DNA of 64,000 bases, taken from NCBI GenBank assembly GCA_005239925.1, contig SBBA01000183.1:27-64026 (forward strand), written 5' to 3'. The DNA is from Candidatus Troglogloeales bacterium. Lineage in GTDB: Bacteria; Nitrospirota; Nitrospiria; SBBL01; SBBA01. The notes below the pieces were generated by a model. The model had not been told where the DNA came from, did not search any database, and saw only the letters and a program-made list of their open reading frames with translations. Shown piece by piece: positions 162 to 57,209 of the stretch (its first letter is position 1; the number at the start of each line of letters is the position of its first letter). The translations under genes were made by a program, and so were the position numbers.

Positions 162-1079
162 GTGATGCCACAAGAAAAAGATTTAAAGTCTATTTTAAAA
201 AACATCCAATTTACCGATGACGCCAAGGTGATGAAGCAATTGGTTGACCAGTCGCTTCAGGTCAAAATTCGGATGGGACAGATTCGGCGCAAAATTGTGA
301 TCATGAGCGGTAAAGGCGGCGTCGGAAAAAGCACCACCACGGTCAACCTGGCATTGGCCTTCGCACGCGCGGGACATCGTGTCGGAATCCTGGATGTGGA
401 TATCAATGGCCCTTGTGTTCCGCGTATGTTGGGGGTCTCCGGGCCGTTTGAAATGACCTCAGAAGGGGCCATTCCAAAAGTGGGGCCGCATGGAATAAAA
501 ATCGCCTCGATGGATTTTTTCCTAAAAGAAAAAGGGACGCCGGTGCGCTGGAAGGGCCCCATGGACATTTCCCCCATCTGGCTGGGAATGCTAGAAATGA
601 ATGTGATTCGTGATTTTCTAGCCGATATTCTCTGGGGTGAAATAGACTATCTTTTTGTAGATCTTCCCCCCGGTGCCGCCGCGGACAAGCCGCCTGTGAT
701 TGCCAATTTTCTGCCCGAATTAGACGGCGCTATCGTGGTGACAACCCCGTCCGAAGTGGCCAAGACGGTTGTGTTAAAATCCATTGCCTACGCACGGGAT
801 ATTGGTATGAAGACCATTGGCCTTATTGAAAATATGGGCCATTCGGTTTGTCCAACCTGTCAGATACCAGTTCCTCTTTTTGAGGGAGGATGTGAAGAGT
901 TGGTTCGAGAGTGGGATATCCCATTGCTGGGGAAGATTCCTTTTGATGTCCAACTGGCGCAATCTTCCGATCGAGGCATTTTGCTTTCGTCCGATCACCC
1001 GATTGCAAGACAGTTTGACCAAATGGTGGCCTTGATTGAAAACAAGCTGGCAGGCGAGCAGGTGGGGATAAAAGTGTAG
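162..1079 (+). CDS. apbC: Mrp/ApbC/NBP35-family Fe-S cluster carrier ATPase
   Basis: 305-aa ORF. It has the deviant Walker A 'SGKGGVGKSTT', the 'VDLPPG' region and a C-terminal 'CPTC' pair typical of the family. Start is GTG 162 or ATG 165. Confidence 0.9.
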   Translation: MMPQEKDLKSILKNIQFTDDAKVMKQLVDQSLQVKIRMGQIRRKIVIMSGKGGVGKSTTTVNLALAFARAGHRVGILDVDINGPCVPRMLGVSGPFEMTSEGAIPKVGPHGIKIASMDFFLKEKGTPVRWKGPMDISPIWLGMLEMNVIRDFLADILWGEIDYLFVDLPPGAAADKPPVIANFLPELDGAIVVTTPSEVAKTVVLKSIAYARDIGMKTIGLIENMGHSVCPTCQIPVPLFEGGCEELVREWDIPLLGKIPFDVQLAQSSDRGILLSSDHPIARQFDQMVALIENKLAGEQVGIKV

Positions 1080-1100
1080 GGGCGCACAGCCGTGCGCCCC
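1079..1100 (+). terminator. GC-rich hairpin overlapping the apbC stop codon (REP-like)
   Basis: GGGGCGCAC-agcc-GTGCGCCCC gives a 9-bp perfect stem and is followed by CTAC. No T-run follows, so terminator function is uncertain. A related hairpin lies at 61759. Confidence 0.4.
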
Positions 1101-1161
1101 TACGGATACATGTCCATTCATCCCATTTTTAAAGAAGAGTAAAATATAAGGAGAAAGAAAA

Positions 1162-1893
1162 ATGAAGTTTGTTTGCATGAAATGTGAATCGTTTATGGAA
1201 TTCCAAAAGGTCGAAAATCCGGCGGAACACTCGCTGGGGGTCAGCTTCGCCTGTTCCTCCTGCGGCGCGAAGATCGCCATGGTGACCAATGCCGGAGAAA
1301 CGGCCATGGTTCAGGCGATGGGGGTGAAAATCGGAGGCCGAGAGGCCGAGCCAGGGCCTATGGAGTTCATTCGGGAAAATTTAAAGGAAAACGGCGCAAA
1401 GAAGGAGTATTCCCCATCGGAGCAGCAGGAGATGCTAAAGGCCGAGATGGCCAAGATGGGCGCATCCCACGGGGCAAGCGGTGAAGGTGCCAGCAAATGC
1501 CCCTTTGCCGGCATGATGGCCAAGATGGGAGGGGCAACGCAAGAGGCAGGAACAGCCTCGTCGACTACGCTGACATGGACAAAAGAGGCAAGGGAGCGGA
1601 TTGAACGGGTGCCTTCATTTATGCGACCCATGATTGAAATGGGGATCGAAAACTACGCCCGGAAGGTCGGCGCAACTTCTGTTACGCCTGAGCTTATGGA
1701 CGCATCCAAGAATGACATGGGTGAGATGACTTGGCCAAAAGAGGCCGAGGCACGGTTGGATAATATTCCCTCCTTTGTCCGCCCCATGGCGAAAAAAGAG
1801 ATTGAACGGATTGCACGGGAACGCGGCATGACCACCATCACGACGGAGCTTCTGGAAGAAACCAAGACAAAATTTATTGGGCTGGGCTATTAG
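1162..1893 (+). CDS. Zinc-ribbon protein with two PCP-reductase-like (protochlorophyllide reductase C-terminal-like) domains
   Basis: 243-aa ORF preceded by the RBS 'aaggagaaag'. The N-terminus has CxxC...CxxC (CMKC, CSSC). There are two internal repeats: 'TWTKEARERIERVPSFMRPM' and 'TWPKEAEARLDNIPSFVRPM'. Confidence 0.7.
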   Translation: MKFVCMKCESFMEFQKVENPAEHSLGVSFACSSCGAKIAMVTNAGETAMVQAMGVKIGGREAEPGPMEFIRENLKENGAKKEYSPSEQQEMLKAEMAKMGASHGASGEGASKCPFAGMMAKMGGATQEAGTASSTTLTWTKEARERIERVPSFMRPMIEMGIENYARKVGATSVTPELMDASKNDMGEMTWPKEAEARLDNIPSFVRPMAKKEIERIARERGMTTITTELLEETKTKFIGLGY

Positions 1894-1983
1894 CCCCCAA
1901 CGGGGGGCGGCGAACGGACCGCTCCCGCTGGTCGCAGTAGGCGTCCTAATGTTATTACACTTAATAAACTATCTACGTAAAAC
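1894..1983 (+). repeat. Family D post-stop-codon element, copy D1
   Basis: Starts at the base after TAG 1891-1893. It opens with the hairpin CCCCC-aacg-GGGGG and ends in 'ctatctacgtaaaac'. It aligns with the copies at 5246 and 56945. Confidence 0.6.
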
Positions 1984-2695: not shown

Positions 2696-2704
2696 AGAAA
2701 TCAA

Positions 2705-2880
2705 GGGACCTCTAAAAACCTAGTGCGCGGCCCGACTGCTGCGTTACCCAGGCGTGACGATGCCTGCGAGCCTGACGACGCCTGCGGCGCTCGGAATCCT
2801 CATGTACACTGCGACCATTGCGGTTCCTGTGCGTAGTAGCCCTTGCACTTGAGCAGGTCGGCACGACAGCGCATTTTCGG
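2705..2880 (+). mobile_element. Family A MITE-like element, degenerate copy A1
   Basis: The left end 'GGGACCTCTAAAAACC' and the core align with the 160-bp subtype at 38271. An internal duplication of the 'gcgtgacga.gcctgcg' segment is present. The right TIR has decayed. Confidence 0.65.
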
Positions 2881-4703: not shown

Positions 4704-4928
4704 TTGAATATGAGTACAACGCTATCCATTAGGATTCCCGATCAATTGGCTGAACAACTTAACTCCGTTTCTAAGGAAACGGAGAGTCCACGCTCACTCA
4801 TTATTCAAAAGGCGCTTGAATCTTATATTGAAGACTATTCGGACAGTCAGATAGCCCTTGATCGCTTACACGACAAAACCGATCCAATTATCTCCGGAAA
4901 AGAACTAAAAAAGTTCCTTAAGCCGTGA
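4704..4928 (+). CDS. Ribbon-helix-helix (CopG/RelB-like) antitoxin, with no cognate toxin adjacent
   Basis: 74-aa ORF. 'LSIRIPDQLAEQLNSVSKETESPRSLIIQKALESYIE' is a classic RHH strand-helix-helix pattern. The RBS 'taggaga' lies upstream. Confidence 0.7.
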   Translation: MNMSTTLSIRIPDQLAEQLNSVSKETESPRSLIIQKALESYIEDYSDSQIALDRLHDKTDPIISGKELKKFLKP

Positions 4929-4947: not shown

Positions 4948-4986
4948 TTGACAAGGGGTATAACGAAGTTTACACTTATAGTGTAA
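4948..4986 (+). promoter_or_regulatory. Candidate sigma70-type promoter plus operator palindrome upstream of vapB
   Basis: TTGACA lies at 4948-4953. The perfect 7-bp inverted repeat TTACACT-tat-AGTGTAA (4970-4986) overlaps the -10 position. The start codon is at 5003. Confidence 0.45.
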
Positions 4987-5002: not shown

Positions 5003-5245
5003 ATGATGAATTCGATCAACTTGAAAGAAGCACGCAAGCATCTGGGTGACTTGGTCGCCGAGGTAGAGCGTGGCGCGTCAGTGGCCATCACCCGTCGCGG
5101 CAGGAAAGTAGCGCGTCTGGTACCAATGGAAAAAGAATCCCCTCAGTCTCTACCCGATCTGGCTTTGTTCAGGGCCTCAATCAAAGTAAAGGGAGGAAGC
5201 CTGACCGACGCGCTTTTGTCCATGCGCCATGAAGAACGGTTCTGA
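5003..5245 (+). CDS. vapB: Phd/YefM-type antitoxin (VapB-like)
   Basis: 80-aa ORF. The N-terminus 'INLKEARKHLGDLVAEVERGASVAITRRGRKVARLVP' matches the Phd/YefM pattern. It lies upstream of a PIN toxin. Confidence 0.8.
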   Translation: MMNSINLKEARKHLGDLVAEVERGASVAITRRGRKVARLVPMEKESPQSLPDLALFRASIKVKGGSLTDALLSMRHEERF

Positions 5246-5334
5246 TCCGCCGACGGGCGGAGGCGAACGGAGCCCTCCCGTTGGTCGGTCTGGGCCTACC
5301 GATGCCGTTACACGAAAGTTATCTACGCAAAAAA
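5246..5334 (+). repeat. Family D post-stop-codon element, copy D2, lying between vapB and vapC
   Basis: Starts at the base after TGA 5243-5245. It opens with the hairpin CCGCC-gacg-GGCGG and ends in 'ttatctacgcaaaaaa'. Confidence 0.65.
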
Positions 5335-5358
5335 TGGTGATGTCATCAAAAGAATCGA

Positions 5359-5781
5359 ATGTCCTTTCTTGACACCAGTGTTCTTACCCCTTACTACTGC
5401 CCGGAGAAACGAAGCACACGCGTACAGCGCCTGTTATCACGCATCGACCGCCCCGTCATTAGCCCACTTGTTGAAATTGAGTTTTATTGCGTGATGGCGC
5501 GCAAAGTTCGATCGGGCGAGATCAGCAAATCCACGGCCCAGCGCATCTTTACAGAGTTCAAACACCACGTAGCGGAGGGACGGTTTGATGTTGTCCCCAT
5601 TGAGGCGGGTGAATATACGTTTGCACGACGATGTATCGAAGAAATGTCCACCTCACTCCGCGCGGTAGACGCTCTTCATTTGGCCACTGCGTCGGCACAT
5701 AACATCGTTCTTGTCACGGCGGATCGCGACCTCGCCCAAGCGGCCAAGCGTTTTGGTGTCAAATATAAGTTTATCCCCTGA
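5359..5781 (+). CDS. vapC: PIN-domain ribonuclease toxin VapC
   Basis: 140-aa ORF. It has the N-terminal 'FLDTSVL' acidic motif and later 'DALHLATA' and 'VTADRDL', the typical PIN acidic residues. Confidence 0.85.
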   Translation: MSFLDTSVLTPYYCPEKRSTRVQRLLSRIDRPVISPLVEIEFYCVMARKVRSGEISKSTAQRIFTEFKHHVAEGRFDVVPIEAGEYTFARRCIEEMSTSLRAVDALHLATASAHNIVLVTADRDLAQAAKRFGVKYKFIP

Positions 5782-10078: not shown

Positions 10079-10501
10079 GTGGATAAGATTTTGGGCCGTA
10101 TCAATGCCGATCGGATTGTCTTTATTGTGGACTCCTGTTTTTCCGGGGCCAGTGGGGGTAGAACACTCCTGGCGTCCAACAAGACCAGGGCAACCTTGTC
10201 TGATCAGTTTTTGGAGCGGCTATCTCGCGGGAAAGGGCGGGTGATTTTATCAGCCTCCCGTGCCAATGAGTTAAGTATTGAGGGAGCCCGATTCGGAGGT
10301 GGTCATGGCGTGTTTACCTATTACTTGCTTGAAGGGCTTAGAGGAAAAGCCGATTACAGCCGAGATGGACTGGTCGATATAGACGAGGTCTATCGGTATC
10401 TATCTGAAAACGTCCCCACGGCAACGGGCCAGCGTCAGACGCCAGTGAAGAAAGGAGAAGTGGAAGGAACGCTCATTGTGGGGAAGGTGAGAAACAAGTA
10501 A
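10079..10501 (+). CDS. Cys half of the same caspase-like (C14) domain, in the same frame as 7184..10075
   Basis: The 140-aa ORF is in frame with the upstream ORF across TAG 10073-10075. 'RIVFIVDSCFSGASGG' is the caspase catalytic Cys motif. It has no convincing RBS of its own. Confidence 0.7.
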   Translation: MDKILGRINADRIVFIVDSCFSGASGGRTLLASNKTRATLSDQFLERLSRGKGRVILSASRANELSIEGARFGGGHGVFTYYLLEGLRGKADYSRDGLVDIDEVYRYLSENVPTATGQRQTPVKKGEVEGTLIVGKVRNK

Positions 10502-14649: not shown

Positions 14650-14886
14650 AAGTTTTTTCAACAAGTCTTCTACATCTTCCGAATCTTCCGAAAAGTCAAA
14701 AACGGATATTCAATTGTTTCAGCTTACCAAAAAGGATAACGCAAGCTTGAAAAGTAGTGCACAAATAGGCACCCTTAATTGCTGGATTGTACAGGAGCAA
14801 TAAAAAGGCTTCTTTCTTATAGGGATCTAGGCTTATGTCGGACAAACCGAGAGACTACCTTGAAAATAAGACTGGAAAGAGCATAA

Positions 14887-15028
14887 GGGCACCTCTAAAA
14901 ACCTACTGCGCGACCCAATTGCTGTGTTGCGCGGTGCTCGAAATCCTCATGTATACTGCATAGATTGCGGTTTCTCCGCTCCGTGCGCCTTGCACTTGGG
15001 CCGCTCGCGACGGTTTTTAGAGATGCCC
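14887..15028 (+). mobile_element. Family A MITE-like element, copy A2 (142-bp subtype)
   Basis: TIRs are GGGCACCTCTAAAAACC and GGTTTTTAGAGATGCCC. Flanking direct repeat is ATAA/ATAA. No ORF is present. Confidence 0.8.
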
Positions 15029-15082
15029 ATAAGAAAGCGAACAGCACTTTATGTCCAGGATCTTAATTGGCGCATACATCCT

Positions 15083-18211: not shown

Positions 18212-18308
18212 GACATCCCCCTCCTTTCAGAAGCATGGCTAAAAGAATACAGCCCTTGATGTTCAGATTGACATGACGTTATACCGACCATTGCCGATAT
18301 TCTCAGTT

Positions 18309-18450
18309 GGGCACCTCTAAAAACCTACTGCGCGACCCAATTGCTGCGTTGCGCGGTGCTCGGAATCCTCATGTACACTGCGTACATTCCGGTTCCTCTG
18401 CTTCGTGCACCTTGCACTTGGGCCGCTCGCGACGGTTTTTAGAGGTACCC
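18309..18450 (+). mobile_element. Family A MITE-like element, copy A3 (142-bp subtype)
   Basis: TIRs are GGGCACCTCTAAAAACC and GGTTTTTAGAGGTACCC. Flanking direct repeat is AGTT/AGTT. It differs from A2 by about a dozen mismatches on manual alignment. Confidence 0.8.
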
Positions 18451-18499
18451 AGTTACGACTTTCTACCCGTAATAGGCTAAAGGCCATCAATACACTTGT

Positions 18500-29984: not shown

Positions 29985-30536
29985 ATGTTTCTTCATCTCT
30001 GGGAACTCCAGGAAATCCATATCTCCTATTATTACTTTGATGAAAACGAAATGCGGCTGAACGATTTTACCCTGATTGACGTCATGTCGATTTCCCCCAG
30101 GGATCGACTGTTTAAGCCCCTTTCCTTTAAGATGCAAACCGGTCTAATCAGAAAAGGAGATCCGTTTGGCAAAGACCATCTCATTTATCAATTCGACCCC
30201 GGTGTTGGATTGGCCTTTCAAAATGAAATGATCGGCCTTTATTATGGGATGCTTATAGCCGACCTGGAAATCGGCGGGATGTTTGACGATCATTATGCGA
30301 TGGGGGTAGGGGCCGAGATCGGCGCTACTATCCGGATCACCGATTTATGGAAGGTCATTCCTTCGGCCAAGGCAATGCGTTATGAGATAGGAGACCGTTT
30401 CACAGAAGGCCAGGGGAAGATCACGCAAACATTCACGGTGGACCAGAATAATACGCTGGGCATCACCGCATCACGTGAGTTACGATGGGGTCAGAAGAAA
30501 ACGAAACTGGGTCTCACCTGGCATTATTACTTTTAG
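29985..30536 (+). CDS. Hypothetical protein, possibly a C-terminal remnant of a larger exported or beta-barrel protein
   Basis: 183-aa ORF with the RBS AGGAGG 8 nt upstream. It has no signal peptide. It ends '...LGLTWHYYF', an aromatic C-terminus like an OMP beta-signal. An in-frame stop lies at 29931 upstream. Confidence 0.45.
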   Translation: MFLHLWELQEIHISYYYFDENEMRLNDFTLIDVMSISPRDRLFKPLSFKMQTGLIRKGDPFGKDHLIYQFDPGVGLAFQNEMIGLYYGMLIADLEIGGMFDDHYAMGVGAEIGATIRITDLWKVIPSAKAMRYEIGDRFTEGQGKITQTFTVDQNNTLGITASRELRWGQKKTKLGLTWHYYF

Positions 30537-38147: not shown

Positions 38148-38270
38148 AGATCTGCCTGTCACATCCTGAAGAATATCAAGTCAATGGGGGCTCTCGTTTT
38201 TCTTCGTAGCCTCACTCGATCCTTTCCAACAAGGCTGATAATGACTCTTCATCGGAGCGGAAGTATATCC

Positions 38271-38430
38271 GGGCACCTCTAAAAACCTACTGCGCGGCCT
38301 AACTACTGTGTTGCGCGGGCGTGACGACGCCTGCGGCGCTCGAAATCCTCATGTACACTGCGACCATTACGATTCTTGTGCGTAGTAGCCCTTGCATTTG
38401 AGCCGCTGGCTACGGTTTTTAGAGGTGCCC
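38271..38430 (+). mobile_element. Family A MITE-like element, copy A4 (160-bp subtype)
   Basis: It has perfect TIRs GGGCACCTCTAAAAACC and GGTTTTTAGAGGTGCCC. Flanks are ATCC/ATTC. Confidence 0.8.
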
Positions 38431-38803
38431 ATTCCTTAAATAAACATAAACTGTTTATTAGGTAAATAAAATAAATACAATTAGAGTATTGACAAAGTAG
38501 AGTTTTTTTGCTATCGTTCCAAGCATCGTAAAACTGATGCGCTTTATGTCTGTAAACTTGTTGGATTAATTGGCTGTGGCTAATGTTTACTATAATCAGG
38601 GTACCTCTTTTAGGTGGGGTGGTTTGTTCGATATCGTTGACTGGGCGTTGAAAAACGATGAGCCGGTGATTGTGATGGGGCGACAGTCACAGAAGGCCCC
38701 CTCAGGCACTAACAAGAGAAGAAGGTTTGACGCCAAGTGGGATAACCGGTTCCAGGAAAACCTGAAGCTGGATTAGTTAGAAGGTTGTTTAAGTCAGAAC
38801 GGA

Positions 38804-42822: not shown

Positions 42823-42882
42823 GGGGAACCAACCCATCCCCGCCTGGTACTGTGGTACATTAATTGCGCAACATGTTGGTTC

Positions 42883-42992
42883 ATCATTCCGGCATGTCTC
42901 TAGCCGGAATCCAGGGTTACGCCATTGCGGGCAGTGTCGAACGCTTTGACTCCGACAGCTCTGGATTCCGGCTTAAACATTGCCGGAATGAC
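42883..42992 (+). repeat. Family C nested-hairpin element, copy C1 (ribBA-ribH spacer)
   Basis: Outer arms are aTCATTCCGGCA and TGCCGGAATGAC. Inner arms are AGCCGGAATCCAGGG and CTCTGGATTCCGGCT. Length is 110 bp. Confidence 0.75.
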
Positions 42993-43035
42993 AGGGATTT
43001 TGTTAGCCCTGTAGGCAGATGGGTTTTCGTAACGC

Positions 43036-46918: not shown

Positions 46919-46970
46919 AAAAGGAGAAAATGATCTTTGGCCCAAGGCTACGACGTATTAACTTAGATGT

Positions 46971-47056
46971 GTCATTCCGGCAATTTTTAAGCCGGAATCC
47001 AGAGTTGTCTGTAGTAGCTTAACCCTGGATTCCGGCTAGAGGCATGCCGGAATGAC
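46971..47056 (-). repeat. Family C nested-hairpin element, copy C2 (cheY-cheA spacer, inverted, short core)
   Basis: Ends are GTCATTCCGGCA and TGCCGGAATGAC. Its reverse complement aligns with C1 and C3 but the core is 24 bp shorter. Confidence 0.75.
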
Positions 47057-47120
47057 AGACGAACATGTTGCACAATTGATAAGCCACAGTACTCGGCTGA
47101 ATTTATTAGAAGATATTACT

Positions 47121-51991: not shown

Positions 51992-52035
51992 GGGCACTGT
52001 TTTCAAAAGGACTTTCAACTTTTTTGTAGGTTTTT

Positions 52036-52145
52036 GTCATTCCGGCATGTTTCTAGCCGGAATCCAGGGTTACGCCACTACGGGCGGTGTCGAACGCTTT
52101 AGCTCTGACATCTCTGGATTCCGGCTTAAAGATTGCCGGAATGAC
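52036..52145 (+). repeat. Family C nested-hairpin element, copy C3 (mcp-cheW spacer)
   Basis: 110 bp, near-identical in layout to C1, with perfect outer arms GTCATTCCGGCA and TGCCGGAATGAC. Confidence 0.8.
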
Positions 52146-52196
52146 GTATGTGTGTAAGATGTTTTATTAACAGTAGGGTAGAGGTATTGTAAACCT

Positions 52197-54478: not shown

Positions 54479-56944
54479 TTGGATCACATGGAGCGTGAAA
54501 TAACCCTTTCAAAAAAGCAGTCCATTCAATGCCCCCATTGTCATGCCCGGGTTAATCTAACGGTGTCCGTTGATATCGCCCACGGGGAGGCCGCTTTAGA
54601 GACAGACTCAGGTCCTGTATCTCAACTAGGGCAGTTGTCTATACCTCATGATATTCCATTAGACGATCGCAGTGTGGTTGTTGCGGTCAATGGCGAAGGA
54701 ACAGCGGGCTTTATAAAAGACCTTCTGGAGGGATCACAATTTAATGTGATTTCTGTTTCCTCCCTGGAGGGCGTTTTTTCTGTTCGTGGCGAAACCTTTC
54801 CGGGAACCGTCCTCATTGATTTAGGGCTTCCCAATATGCCGATGATGAATATTGGCGAAGTGATGCACCGATCCACACTGATCCTTATTTCCGCCGGATA
54901 TGGCAATAAGGGGGCCTATTCTGCCGCGGATGCCCCCGCGTTTGGCGCCAACGATTATATCGAACGGCGGCATATTCAAAGAGACCTGATTGATAAAATC
55001 CTGTTTCACATCCGTCAACGCAACATGGTGGGTGTTCTTGAAGAAGAGGCATCACTGGTGGGTGTTGGAACAGTAGCGTCAACGGAATCCCCCTCGCAAG
55101 AGACGATACTTGAATATCCTCCACCTGTAGCCGATGAAGCGATTGCGCCTACGGTTTCAGAGAATTTGACCGAGGCCTTCGTTACAGAGGAGGCAGAGTC
55201 TTCGGTGGCGACAGGCGTTGTAGAGGAGGCGCTGCTTTCCCCATCTGTTTTATCCGAATTATCTGTCGAAACCTTCCCGGATCAGGAATTGCCACCTCAA
55301 GAGGGTCTTTGGGGCTTACCTGAAAGGCCGTCTCCCTTGGCCGTCGAGGAGATGGAATCAATTACAACGGAACCACCGCCACTTGAAGCAATCGTGCCTC
55401 CCCCTATCGAAGAGGAGATTCCGGTGCCCGTGTCTGCACTGGTGCAAGCGCCCGAACAAGCGTCAATGGAAGCGCCTGTAATTGAGGAGGTTCCTTCTAT
55501 TGCCCAGGAACCAACGGTGTATTGGGAGGAAACGGAAAGTCCTGTAGCTGTTCCCGATGTGGAACCGTCGTTTGATATGAGCCCGGTTGACGAGGCAGTG
55601 GAACCGGTGGCGGTACAGGAGCCTTGCTTTGAAACGATGGAGCCTCCTGTTACGGCAGAAGAAAGGGAGTCCGTTGAATCGGTCTTAACGCCTGAGGAAC
55701 CTGTGCTGGCAGAGGAACCCTGGGTTAAAACAGGTGAGCTGGAAGAAGCGGCTCAATCTGTAGATACTTTCGAAACCGAAGAAGCCAGGCCCCCTTATCC
55801 GGTGGCCCCCGCTTATGAAACCGTGGAGCCCCCCGTTTCAGAGCCAATAAGTCCTCCTTCGCTGGAACCTGAGCCTGTTGTTTTTGGGTATGAAGTCGAA
55901 AATGCATGGGATGTTCGGCCCCCAGGGCCTGTCGTTGAAGAGCCGGAGTCTGTCATTGAAATTGATGAGCATGATGGGGAGACCGAGCTTGCCGAGGCCA
56001 TGCGTCAATCTACATCAATAGCAGAGACGTTTGAAATTGAACGACGGCCGTCTCCATTTGATGAAGTGGCCTCTCCTGTTGCGGAAGTTCCTTCTACAGA
56101 GGAAAGTGATCGCTACACGACGGAACCCTCTCCCCTGGTCACAGAATATGAAATGGAACCGGTGGGGCCTGTCTCGGTCGAGGAGCCCTACGTTGAGGTG
56201 AGTGAATCAGGGGTTGAATCAACTGGAACAATAGACACTGAAGAACAGCCTTCTTATTCGGTAGAACCGTCGCCATTTGATACGTCCCATGCCCCTGTAG
56301 AAACACCGAAGGCGCCGCTTGTTGAAGAATTACCTATCGTCACAGGATATGAGACAGAGCCAACGGAATCGCCTACTGCGTTGGAAGAAGCGCCCTATGC
56401 CGTCAAGACAAGTGAACCAGAGACCGCATCAGCAGAGGTATTAGAGACCGAAGCGGCACCCGCTTCTGTGGAGACGCCCTCCCCATTTGAGACGGCATAT
56501 GCCCCTGTAGCAACGCCCGAAGCGCCGTTTGTTGAGCAGGCGGCTGCTGTTGTCTCTGAATATGAAATGCAACCGGTTGAATCAGCTAGTAGCGAGGCCG
56601 CTTTGTCGGAGAAACTAACGATTGAGATGTTGCTGCAACAAGCTCAGTCCCTTGAGCTGCCACAAGAAACCCCTCTCGTTGATGAAATTGATCCAAAGGA
56701 ATTAGAGTCGGCAAAACGGTTGGCGCGTATTATTGTTTCGGATATTGTGCTTTATAACGAAAATAAGGTTTTAAACGGCATTCGGAACAACACCTTCTAT
56801 GTGCTCTTAAAAGACGATATTGAAGAAGGACGAAAGCATTACAACTCTCGTGTCTCTCCTAAAATTAGAGAACGGGCAGACCATCTTCTGGATGCGTTTG
56901 AGGCCTATATAAAGAGGAAAAAGGGCAGTCTTAGTCTAAACTAA
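54479..56944 (+). CDS. Large acidic Pro/Glu/Val-rich protein with an N-terminal receiver-like region and a conserved C-terminal module
   Basis: 821-aa ORF (TTG 54479 or ATG 54488). 'VLIDLGLPNMP' sits in a REC-like segment. A roughly 500-aa low-complexity acidic region contains about three repeats of 'PSPF(D/E)..(H/Y/A)(A/S)PV..P.AP'. The ordered C-terminus is 'AKRLARIIVSDIVLYNENKVLNGIRNNTFYVLLKDDIEEGRKHYNSRV'. Confidence 0.7.
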   Translation: MDHMEREITLSKKQSIQCPHCHARVNLTVSVDIAHGEAALETDSGPVSQLGQLSIPHDIPLDDRSVVVAVNGEGTAGFIKDLLEGSQFNVISVSSLEGVFSVRGETFPGTVLIDLGLPNMPMMNIGEVMHRSTLILISAGYGNKGAYSAADAPAFGANDYIERRHIQRDLIDKILFHIRQRNMVGVLEEEASLVGVGTVASTESPSQETILEYPPPVADEAIAPTVSENLTEAFVTEEAESSVATGVVEEALLSPSVLSELSVETFPDQELPPQEGLWGLPERPSPLAVEEMESITTEPPPLEAIVPPPIEEEIPVPVSALVQAPEQASMEAPVIEEVPSIAQEPTVYWEETESPVAVPDVEPSFDMSPVDEAVEPVAVQEPCFETMEPPVTAEERESVESVLTPEEPVLAEEPWVKTGELEEAAQSVDTFETEEARPPYPVAPAYETVEPPVSEPISPPSLEPEPVVFGYEVENAWDVRPPGPVVEEPESVIEIDEHDGETELAEAMRQSTSIAETFEIERRPSPFDEVASPVAEVPSTEESDRYTTEPSPLVTEYEMEPVGPVSVEEPYVEVSESGVESTGTIDTEEQPSYSVEPSPFDTSHAPVETPKAPLVEELPIVTGYETEPTESPTALEEAPYAVKTSEPETASAEVLETEAAPASVETPSPFETAYAPVATPEAPFVEQAAAVVSEYEMQPVESASSEAALSEKLTIEMLLQQAQSLELPQETPLVDEIDPKELESAKRLARIIVSDIVLYNENKVLNGIRNNTFYVLLKDDIEEGRKHYNSRVSPKIRERADHLLDAFEAYIKRKKGSLSLN

Positions 56945-57035
56945 TCCGCCGACGGGCGGAGGCGAGTAGGCCCTCTCGTTGGGCGGGACGCCGCCTGCAA
57001 TTGGTCTGGGTAAAAAAATATTTACGCAAAAAAAC
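56945..57035 (+). repeat. Family D post-stop-codon element, copy D3
   Basis: Starts at the base after TAA 56942-56944. The first 22 nt are identical to D2 ('tccgccgacgggcggaggcga'). It ends in 'tatttacgcaaaaaaa'. Confidence 0.65.
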
Positions 57036-57068
57036 AGGTGTTACCGACAGAGGGTCTATTACCATACT

Positions 57069-57122
57069 GTCATTCCGCAATCGGCGTTCTGACCGGCAGT
57101 GTTTAAGCCGGAATTCAGTGAC
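57069..57122 (-). repeat. Family C element, truncated and degenerate copy C4
   Basis: The reverse complement 'ctgaattccggcttaaacactgccgg...aatgac' matches the right half of C1 and C3, with an 18-nt insertion. Confidence 0.5.
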
Positions 57123-57209
57123 TTTTATAGATATGAGACGCCCGGTATTTTCCCAAATCCTGATTTAGTCTGTTCGAAAATGGCATAATAGCAAGAAAGA
57201 GTAGGTCTA

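What the first reader, a model, noticed from the sequence alone, without database searches (positions are those of the whole stretch)
56945..57035. Family D: a ~90-bp element that starts at the first nucleotide after a stop codon in all three copies, with a covarying hairpin
Seen: D1 at 1894 follows TAG, D2 at 5246 follows TGA, and D3 at 56945 follows TAA. D2 and D3 share an identical 22-nt head, 'tccgccgacgggcggaggcgaa/g'. The first hairpin is CCGCC-gacg-GGCGG in D2 and D3 but CCCCC-aacg-GGGGG in D1. The central G:C pair is swapped to C:G on both arms, which is a compensatory change. All copies end in 'TA(T/C)(T/C)TACG(C/T)AAAA'. Inference: the zero-distance junction with three different stop codons suggests one of two things. 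The element may target, or even bring, a stop codon (T-R-R may be part of it). Alternatively it may be a selected 3'-UTR module such as a terminator or stability element. The covariation argues that structure matters.
Basis: partly seen in the sequence, partly recalled or inferred. Interest (0 to 1): 0.6.

Follow-up and report, generated by a model that had tools for sequence, protein, structure and literature searches.

The report
Short repeat flush against stop codons
Family D is a roughly 113-base non-coding repeat of an uncultured Nitrospirota lineage, absent from the same sites in close relatives, whose first hairpin begins on the base after a gene's stop codon; it is a new family of an already familiar kind of bacterial short repeat, and its exact placement is the only unusual part.

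Summary
D1, D2 and D3 begin on the first base after TAG, TGA and TAA of genuine genes. They are homologous (nhmmer E 1e-24 to 1e-26), and the first hairpin covaries.

With four more copies from two related Nitrospirota assemblies, five of the six hairpin pairs show changes on both sides. Five independent intergenic copies, in two genomes, are all flush with a stop codon.

The element is longer than reported, about 113 nt. D2 fills the whole vapB-vapC spacer. It has no terminal inverted repeats, no target duplication, no U-tract and no Rfam match.

It is lineage-specific. A relative about 85% identical in DNA lacks D1 and D3 at the same sites. Orthologous proteins without the element end at the same residue, so it does not bring the stop codon.

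One copy in a relative is a clean in-frame 108-nt (36 aa) insertion inside a radical-SAM gene, so stop adjacency is not absolute.

Best reading: a non-autonomous interspersed repeat that works like REP/BIME or Rickettsia RPE elements. It is co-transcribed in operons and tolerated or useful only when its hairpin abuts the stop. Whether the flush position reflects insertion preference or selection is unresolved. Moderate interest.

The parts
1891..1893 (+). TAG stop of the PCP_red-domain gene (ORF 1162..1893). Its G is the outer base of the D1 hairpin.
1893..1908 (+). D1 hairpin 1: G-CCCCC-aacg-GGGGG-C, -12.5 kcal/mol.
1894..1982 (+). D1 body. The core CCCGCTGGTCGC lies at 1924-1935 and the tail TATCTACGTAAAA at 1970-1982. 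The 29 nt from 1983 to 2011, up to the GTG of the next gene, do not align with the other copies.
5243..5245 (+). TGA stop of the Phd/YefM antitoxin gene (ORF 5003..5245).
5246..5358 (+). D2, 113 nt, fills the whole spacer between vapB and the PIN toxin ATG at 5359. Hairpin 1 is 5246-5261, the core CCCGTTGGTCGG is 5277-5288, the tail is 5320-5335, and the right module TGGTGATGTCATCAAAAGAATCGA is 5335-5358.
56942..56944 (+). TAA stop of the 821-aa che-operon gene (ORF 54479..56944).
56945..57057 (+). D3, about 113 nt. Hairpin 1 is 56945-56960 (T-CCGCC-gacg-GGCGG-A), the core CTCGTTGGGCGG is 56975-56986, a second arm-swapped hairpin GGCGG-gacg-CCGCC is 56982-56995, the tail TATTTACGCAAAA is 57019-57031, and the right module ends ...GAGGGTCT at 57057.

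Best explanation
Family D is a non-autonomous, short (about 113 nt) interspersed repeat of a Nitrospirota (class Nitrospiria) lineage. It works like REP/BIME elements and Rickettsia RPEs.

**Layout.** It is modular:
- a 5' GC hairpin whose sequence is free but whose pairing is kept;
- a conserved core, (A/C)GGCGAAC-N8-CTCCCGYTGGKCG;
- a variable middle;
- an A-rich tail, TAYYTACGCAAAAAA;
- a right module, ...GATATCATCAACAAAGARNYCT.

**Shown.** Copies are gained and lost within the lineage and lie in one orientation, the sense of the flanking genes. They sit at cistron junctions, so they are presumably transcribed as part of the operon mRNA.

**Inferred.** A terminating ribosome covers roughly the first 10-15 nt after the stop. 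A hairpin starting at +1 is therefore melted on translated mRNA and cannot pause or terminate the coupled polymerase. Copies in that position are non-polar and survive inside operons. After the ribosome leaves, the hairpins can protect the upstream cistron's 3' end, and the A-rich single-stranded tail is a likely cleavage site. That would favour the upstream product, for example antitoxin over toxin at D2. Alternatively, as with REPs closer than 16 nt to a stop, the hairpin could damp termination of the upstream gene.

**Unknown.** What mobilises the element. No transposase is in the window.
For: **Repeat family.**
- Three copies in the window and four in two other Nitrospirota assemblies.
- The Logan contig L036 of the same organism begins inside the D2 tail, which would fit an assembly break at a repeat.

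**Lineage-specific presence.**
- The about 85-87% identical relative (JGI 3300045502; L034, L035) lacks D1 and D3 and carries other hairpins or REPs there.
- L027, L031 and L032 have 18-38-nt spacers at the D1 site.
- L033 has 6 nt at the D3 site.
- The PCP_red tree places the window's D1 apart from the L026/L028 clade, whose stop is also followed flush by a hairpin element. L026's is a clear D relative; L028's was not detected as D by nhmmer or the model. Two gains, or several losses.

**Intragenic copy.** A clean in-frame 108-nt insertion is absent from six orthologues, with no target duplication and no terminal inverted repeats.

**Hairpin.**
- Covariation is strong.
- The D2/D3 head is 21/21 identical against 56% identity elsewhere.

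**Flush placement.**
- Five of five independent intergenic copies are flush.
- Another roughly 113-nt repeat family in the same window lies 43-59 nt from stops, so flushness is specific to this family.

**Not a terminator, not a known RNA.** No U-tract, no Rfam hit even at E<=10, and no plasmid or phage match.

**Literature.**
- Ribosomes repress a hairpin placed a few bp after a stop; termination efficiency falls from about 90% to under 10% (PMC4824070).
- REPs closer than 16 nt to a stop down-regulate translation, and a large share of E. coli REPs sit there (Liang et al. 2015, as summarised in PMC12306157).
- REPs act as stabiliser and attenuator inside operons (bioRxiv 10.64898/2026.03.23.713779).
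- RPEs insert in frame (PMC2229807).
Against: - Only seven copies were reachable, and no genome-wide census was possible. The source genome is in neither searchable DNA collection.
- There are no expression data. The RNA-level role is inference.
- Selection alone does not easily explain exact zero distance where room was available. D3's spacer is 138 nt in the nearest relative, and L4a is followed by about 400 nt of non-coding DNA.
- No mobilising enzyme has been identified. Pfam scans of 38 of the 53 non-overlapping ORFs of at least 100 aa found no transposase.
- The hairpin shows only Watson-Crick pairs and A.C-type mismatches, with no G.U. A DNA-level role, as a transposase recognition site, is equally compatible.
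Confidence: 0.5

Rival explanations
1. Site-specific insertion. The element, or the enzyme that moves it, inserts preferentially at the base after a stop codon. It might recognise T-R-R plus context, or home into pre-existing stop-adjacent hairpins. It might use single-stranded DNA, like IS200/IS605-type or REP/RAYT-type elements, which leave no target duplication.
For: - Five of five intergenic copies sit at distance 0, after TAG, TGA and TAA, even where longer spacers were available.
- No terminal inverted repeats and no target duplication, and a hairpin at the very end.
- The same stop codon (PCP_red) carries D-type hairpin elements in non-sister lineages.
- At that site the stop is TAG in all three element-bearing genomes, and TGA or TAA in all four without it.
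- Other hairpin elements of the clade are also flush or overlapping: the GTAG tag of REPs supplies the TAG stop.
Against: - The intragenic copy L4c sits after ...CGG GCG, not after a stop.
- A 3-nt degenerate target cannot by itself pick in-frame stops.
- No Y1 or other transposase was seen.
- In IS608-type elements the hairpin is subterminal, not terminal (own knowledge).
Confidence: 0.2
2. A host-selected RNA switch that senses termination. The 3' arm of hairpin 1 can pair either with its 5' arm, which a terminating ribosome masks, or with the conserved core CCCGYUGG. Translation of the upstream gene would then change the fold of the intercistronic RNA, and so its processing or the downstream gene's expression.
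For: - The alternative helix CCRACGGG/CCCGYUGG can be drawn in every copy, including L026 whose hairpin sequence differs. It is 78% paired overall, and 88.6% in the outer helix.
- The head is conserved 21/21 between D2 and D3 although the bodies have diverged.
- All copies lie in one orientation relative to the genes.
Against: - The alternative helix shows no covariation; shuffles do as well.
- Folding z-scores of whole elements are unremarkable, -0.3 to -1.7.
- The downstream genes are unrelated, and the element is absent from close relatives at the same sites. That is atypical of a conserved regulator.
Confidence: 0.12
3. The element carries its own stop codon (T-R-R is its first triplet) and truncates or re-terminates genes on insertion.
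For: The stop is TAG in the three genomes that have a hairpin element after PCP_red, and TGA or TAA in the four without. GTAG REPs of the same clade do supply TAG stops.
Against: - The C-terminus is identical with and without the element.
- Three different stop codons precede near-identical heads (D2 TGA, D3 TAA).
- The intragenic copy has no stop.
Confidence: 0.05
4. An intrinsic terminator, or a recoding (readthrough or SECIS-like) signal.
For: A GC hairpin lies directly 3' of the stop.
Against: - There is no U-tract, and the terminator scan finds nothing on the + strand.
- The element lies inside operons, including vapBC.
- It follows all three stop codons.
- The post-stop reading frames are not conserved: D2 and D3 are shifted by 1 nt relative to D1 and L4a, and stops occur.
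- No Rfam match.
Confidence: 0.03

Closest known systems
REP / BIME elements (E. coli, Pseudomonas)
   Same: - GC hairpin repeats in transcribed 3' or intercistronic positions, often within 15 nt of the stop.
- Mosaic and modular, and variable between strains.
- Act as mRNA stabilisers, attenuators or dampers of translation.
   Different: - No GTAG (or terminal CGTC) tag next to the hairpin.
- One long unit of about 113 nt with a non-palindromic core and an A-rich tail.
- Not arranged as inverted dimers.
- True GTAG REPs coexist in the same genome (window 1076-1103).
Rickettsia palindromic elements (RPE)
   Same: - About 100-150 nt non-autonomous repeats.
- Found in intergenic DNA and as in-frame insertions in conserved protein genes (compared).
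   Different: - D is not palindromic end to end.
- Intergenic copies are flush with stop codons.
- Only one intragenic case has been seen.
MITEs (Correia/NEMIS, ERIC, RUP)
   Same: - Similar size.
- Located at operon junctions.
- Transcribed hairpins can be processed and alter the stability of neighbouring cistrons.
   Different: No terminal inverted repeats and no TA or other target duplication.
IS200/IS605-derived palindrome-associated elements
   Same: - No inverted repeats and no target duplication.
- Hairpin at an end.
- A single orientation.
   Different: - No conserved 4-5-nt target on the left flank.
- The hairpin is terminal, not subterminal.
- No TnpA or TnpB gene was found in the 64 kb window.
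Intrinsic terminators placed next to stop codons
   Same: Hairpin immediately after the stop. The literature shows that such hairpins are masked by the terminating ribosome.
   Different: There is no U-tract, and the element is followed by a co-directional gene of the same operon.

Membership tests
REP (GTAG- or CGTC-tagged; Di Nocera 2013, PMC3733652) | Unpaired GTAG or CGTC tetranucleotide at one end of a 20-40-nt palindrome | tested here: not met
   The D hairpins are preceded by the stop codon (TAG, TGA or TAA). GACG occurs only in the loop. Genuine GTAG REPs are present elsewhere.
REP (GTAG- or CGTC-tagged) | Association with a RAYT (Y1 transposase) gene flanked by the repeats | not testable with these tools
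   Only 64 kb of the genome is available, and no transposase domain was found in it.
MITE | Terminal inverted repeats | tested here: not met
   The left end (TCCGCCGACGG...) has no inverted copy at the right end.
MITE | Target-site duplication | tested here: not met
   The filled L4c site, compared with the empty orthologous sites in L038 and L039, shows no duplication.
Rickettsia-type palindromic element (works-like comparison) | In-frame insertion into conserved protein genes | tested here: met
   A 36-aa insertion lies after the invariant HHLLWLHKRGRA and is absent from six orthologues.
Rickettsia-type palindromic element (works-like comparison) | Whole element folds as one long palindrome | tested here: not met
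   Only the local hairpin is supported. Whole-element z-scores are -0.3 to -1.7.
Intrinsic terminator | GC hairpin followed by a U-tract | tested here: not met
   The scans find none on the + strand in D1-D3, and A-rich rather than U-rich sequence follows.
Any Rfam family | Covariance-model match | tested here: not met
   No hit at gathering score in the whole window. Only E>=0.19 noise appears at E<=10.
IS200/IS605-type single-strand transposon relic | Conserved short target abutting the left end, and subterminal hairpins at both ends | tested here: inconclusive
   The left flanks are TAG, TGA, TAA and GCG. The right flanks tend to begin AA(T). There are too few copies to judge.
Integron attC | R''/R' core sites (RYYYAAC ... 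GTTRRRY) as inverted repeats at the 3' end of cassette ORFs | tested here: not met
   GTTGGGC is present only in D3 and L4c, and no matching inverse core exists. The flanking genes are conserved chromosomal operons, not cassettes.

The most novel reading that the evidence does not exclude
Hairpin-bearing repeats of this Nitrospirota clade (family D, and perhaps the GTAG REPs too) home to the exact boundary after a translation stop. That would mean an insertion process that recognises stop sites. Alternatively, D is a portable switch that senses termination: the terminating ribosome melts hairpin 1 and thereby sets the fold and fate of the intercistronic RNA.
Probability: 0.12. Interest if true: 0.75.

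Novelty: new member of a known kind. Interest (0 to 1): 0.38.

Why it matters
The phenomenon is small but clean. Five independent insertions in two genomes sit exactly on the base after three different stop codons. The same gene end has been hit in non-sister lineages.

If the placement comes from selection, it is a natural experiment on how close a hairpin may sit to a stop inside an operon (ribosome masking). If it comes from targeting, it would be an unusual insertion specificity.

In practice, such elements are a plausible cause of contig breaks in metagenome assemblies (L036 begins inside D2). They can also add peptide segments to conserved enzymes, as in the 36-aa insertion in L004.

Tried and rejected
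**Public DNA scans.**
- The genome-contig scan with the invariant head and core gave 24 hits, of which 23 were chance matches in GC-rich genomes. Only L004 was real.
- Two metagenome-contig scans (head+core+tail, and core only) gave nothing, and then one chance hit, L037.
- Two viral scans gave 19 chance hits in contigs of 67-71% GC, plus L041, and nothing for the tail.
- Plasmid and phage BLAST found no match.

**Ideas tested and dropped.**
- A sigma-70 promoter in the tail. Only L4b has a good extended -10 (TGATATCAT). It is not conserved, and the scan finds none.
- A coding or readthrough peptide (PPTGGGER...). The spacing of the variable sites at every third base follows from hairpin symmetry. 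The frames differ between copies, and D3 has an early stop.
- Origin of the tail from the RHH antitoxin gene at 4712-4927. The local alignment is not above shuffled controls.
- The second helix I first modelled (columns 24-27 with 71-74) is only 18.5% paired.
- The alternative head/core helix shows no covariation.
- An attC, SECIS or terminator reading (see the membership tests).

Full report
**1. The observation**

- D1 follows TAG (1891-1893) of a PCP_red-domain gene.
- D2 follows TGA (5243-5245) of a Phd/YefM antitoxin gene.
- D3 follows TAA (56942-56944) of an 821-aa gene of a chemotaxis operon.

These are real genes. Pfam hits are, and orthologues with conserved synteny are.

The copies are clearly homologous: nhmmer E 4e-26 to 1e-23 and covariance model E 1e-16 to 1e-20. 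D2 and D3 share 21 identical leading bases. The tail motif is present in all three. D1 is identical in an independent Logan assembly (L025). Profile and covariance-model searches find no further copy in the 64 kb window.

**2. Anatomy**

Similarity continues 22-25 nt beyond the A-run, so the unit is about 113 nt. D2 (5246-5358) fills the entire spacer between vapB and the vapC ATG. D3 runs to about 57057. The parts are:
- Hairpin 1, a 5-6-bp GC stem with a 4-nt loop, -12 kcal/mol.
- A conserved core, (A/C)GGCGAAC-N8-CTCCCGYTGGKCG.
- A variable middle. In D3 it holds a second hairpin with swapped arms.
- The tail TAYYTACGCAAAAAA.
- A right module, ...GATATCATCAACAAAGARNYCT.

There are no terminal inverted repeats, no U-tract and no consensus promoter or terminator. 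Rfam gives no match at gathering score, and only noise at E<=10. Plasmid and phage collections give no match.

**3. Relatives elsewhere**

The window is an NCBI contig of 64,061 bp from a Nitrospirota bacterium, class Nitrospiria, with its nearest named relatives among the Manganitrophaceae. One public genome scan found a second host, the Nitrospirota MAG contig L004. L004 carries:
- L4a, flush after the TGA of a radical-SAM/SPASM/methyltransferase gene. That gene is unrelated to the window's 821-aa gene.
- L4b, flush after the TGA of a cupin gene.
- L4c, inside the radical-SAM gene.
- A 5'-truncated tail fragment 22 nt after an antitoxin stop.

L026, another Nitrospirota MAG, has a diverged D at the site orthologous to D1.

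Five independent intergenic copies in two genomes are therefore all at distance zero, after all three stop codons. All seven copies lie in the sense orientation of the adjacent gene.

**4. Hairpin covariation**

In the covariance-model alignment of the seven copies, hairpin 1 is 92.7% paired. Five of its six pairs show changes on both sides:
- CCCCC/GGGGG
- CCGCC/GGCGG
- GGCGGC/GCCGCC
- CCCGCUG/CAGCGGG

None of 500 shuffles reached the observed covariation score, and the slid controls are far lower. The alignment was fitted to that structure, which favours it. Even so, the stems are plainly different sequences in the same position.

Only Watson-Crick pairs occur, so the data cannot say whether the hairpin matters as RNA or as single-stranded DNA.

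A second helix, between the 3' arm of hairpin 1 and the core CCCGYTGG, can be drawn in every copy (78% paired) but shows no covariation. It remains a hypothesis.

The D2/D3 head is 21/21 identical, while the rest of the two copies is 56% identical. The head is therefore constrained, either in place or in the source copies.

**5. Evolutionary dynamics**

A relative about 85-87% identical in DNA (JGI 3300045502; L034 and L035) lacks both D1 and D3:
- At the D3 site, 57 nt with a different small hairpin replace window 56951-57135.
- At the D1 site the stop is TGA, followed by a 107-nt spacer holding a GTAG-type REP.

More distant orthologues have tight junctions: 18-38 nt at the D1 site (L027, L031, L032) and 6 nt at the D3 site (L033).

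All PCP_red orthologues end ...KFIG(L/M)GY*, with or without the element. The element therefore sits exactly after the native stop and did not remodel the C-terminus.

In a PCP_red tree the window groups with genomes that lack the element. L026 and L028, whose stop is also followed flush by a hairpin element, lie in another clade. L026's element is a clear D relative. L028's was not detected as D by nhmmer or the model. The same stop codon was therefore occupied at least twice, or the element was lost several times.

L4c is a clean 108-nt, 36-aa in-frame insertion after the invariant HHLLWLHKRGRA. It is absent from six orthologues that are 73-82% identical, and it has no target duplication.

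The Logan contig L036 of the window's organism begins inside the D2 tail, which would fit an assembly break at a repeat.

**6. Is the flush position special?**

Yes, but it has context.

- Another roughly 113-nt repeat family in the same window lies 43-59 nt after stops. Flushness is therefore not a general property of repeats here.
- Among 124 ORFs of the Nitrospirota loci, perfect GC stems start at offsets -5 to +1 nine times, against 17 times over offsets 2 to 49.
- Some of these stems are not D. GTAG REPs have a TAG that is itself the stop codon, at window 1076-1103 and in L035 between the mraY-like and murD-like genes.
- D2 had essentially no alternative position, because the spacer is zero once D2 is removed.
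- D3 and L4a had ample room. Tight spacers alone therefore do not explain the pattern.

**7. Mechanism**

I favour a REP/RPE-like selfish or semi-domesticated repeat that is co-transcribed within operons.

A hairpin that begins at +1 lies within the footprint of the terminating ribosome. Experiments in E. coli show that a hairpin a few bp after a stop is functionally masked, with termination efficiency falling from about 90% to under 10% (PMC4824070). Flush copies would therefore be non-polar and would be retained.

REPs closer than 16 nt to a stop are known to damp translation of the upstream gene (Liang et al. 2015, via PMC12306157). REPs also act as stabiliser and attenuator, giving upstream-biased expression. 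That would suit an insertion between antitoxin and toxin.

These functional steps are inferred, not shown. Direct targeting of stop-adjacent positions remains a serious rival.

**8. Verdict**

The covariation claim is strengthened. The 'brings a stop' and 'terminator' readings are rejected. Targeting against selection is unresolved. This is a new family of a known kind of element, with an unusually strict placement.

Noticed in passing
window 1076-1103; L035 515-440 (-): [quoted passage not shown] In the window this is the ParA/Mrp-like ORF 162..1079. In the close relative, a tandem REP dimer between the mraY-like and murD-like genes does the same.
   Followed up: partly
window 2700-2870, 14883-15037, 18305-18459, 38267-38439; solo ends at 10499 and 30534: A family of about 150-170 nt with terminal inverted repeats, GGGCACCTCTAAAAACC...GGTTTTTAGAGGTGCCC. 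Two solo ends overlap stop codons: the TAA of ORF 10079..10501 and the TAG of ORF 29985..30536.
   Followed up: no
window 42882-42994, 46970-47058, 52035-52147, degenerate 57070-57122: A roughly 113-nt hairpin repeat (TGTCATTCCGGC...GCCGGAATGACAG) in operon spacers, for example between ribBA and ribH. It lies 43-59 nt after stops. One degenerate copy lies just downstream of D3.
   Followed up: partly
L004 6339-6232 (-): An in-frame 108-nt D-like insertion adds 36 aa (AARPPANEPRPLGAVNNPTSLPQKKILYANDVDKEP) between the radical-SAM and SPASM domains of an 855-aa methyltransferase fusion protein. Orthologues are about 818-822 aa.
   Followed up: yes
L004 4099-3908 (-): An RHH antitoxin ORF ends at a TGA, and the frame stays open beyond it (QEDIALLRKK...). 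A 5'-truncated D tail lies 22 nt after that TGA. No toxin gene follows, so this may be a decayed toxin-antitoxin locus.
   Followed up: no
window 4712-4927 and 5003-5781: Two neighbouring antitoxin-type genes: an RHH gene with no obvious toxin partner, then Phd-D2-PIN. The vapBC promoter-like site (TTGACA-17-TACACT) is at 4948-4976.
   Followed up: no
L031 3015-3052: At the empty D1 site of this relative the 38-nt spacer begins CCGCCG and contains TTTATCTTATT. It may be a deletion remnant of a D-type element, or coincidence.
   Followed up: no
L026 1848-1895: In the diverged D copy the GGGAGG of the head is followed 4 nt later by ATG and an 11-codon ORF (MTASRWSRCVC*). No other copy has this.
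   Followed up: no
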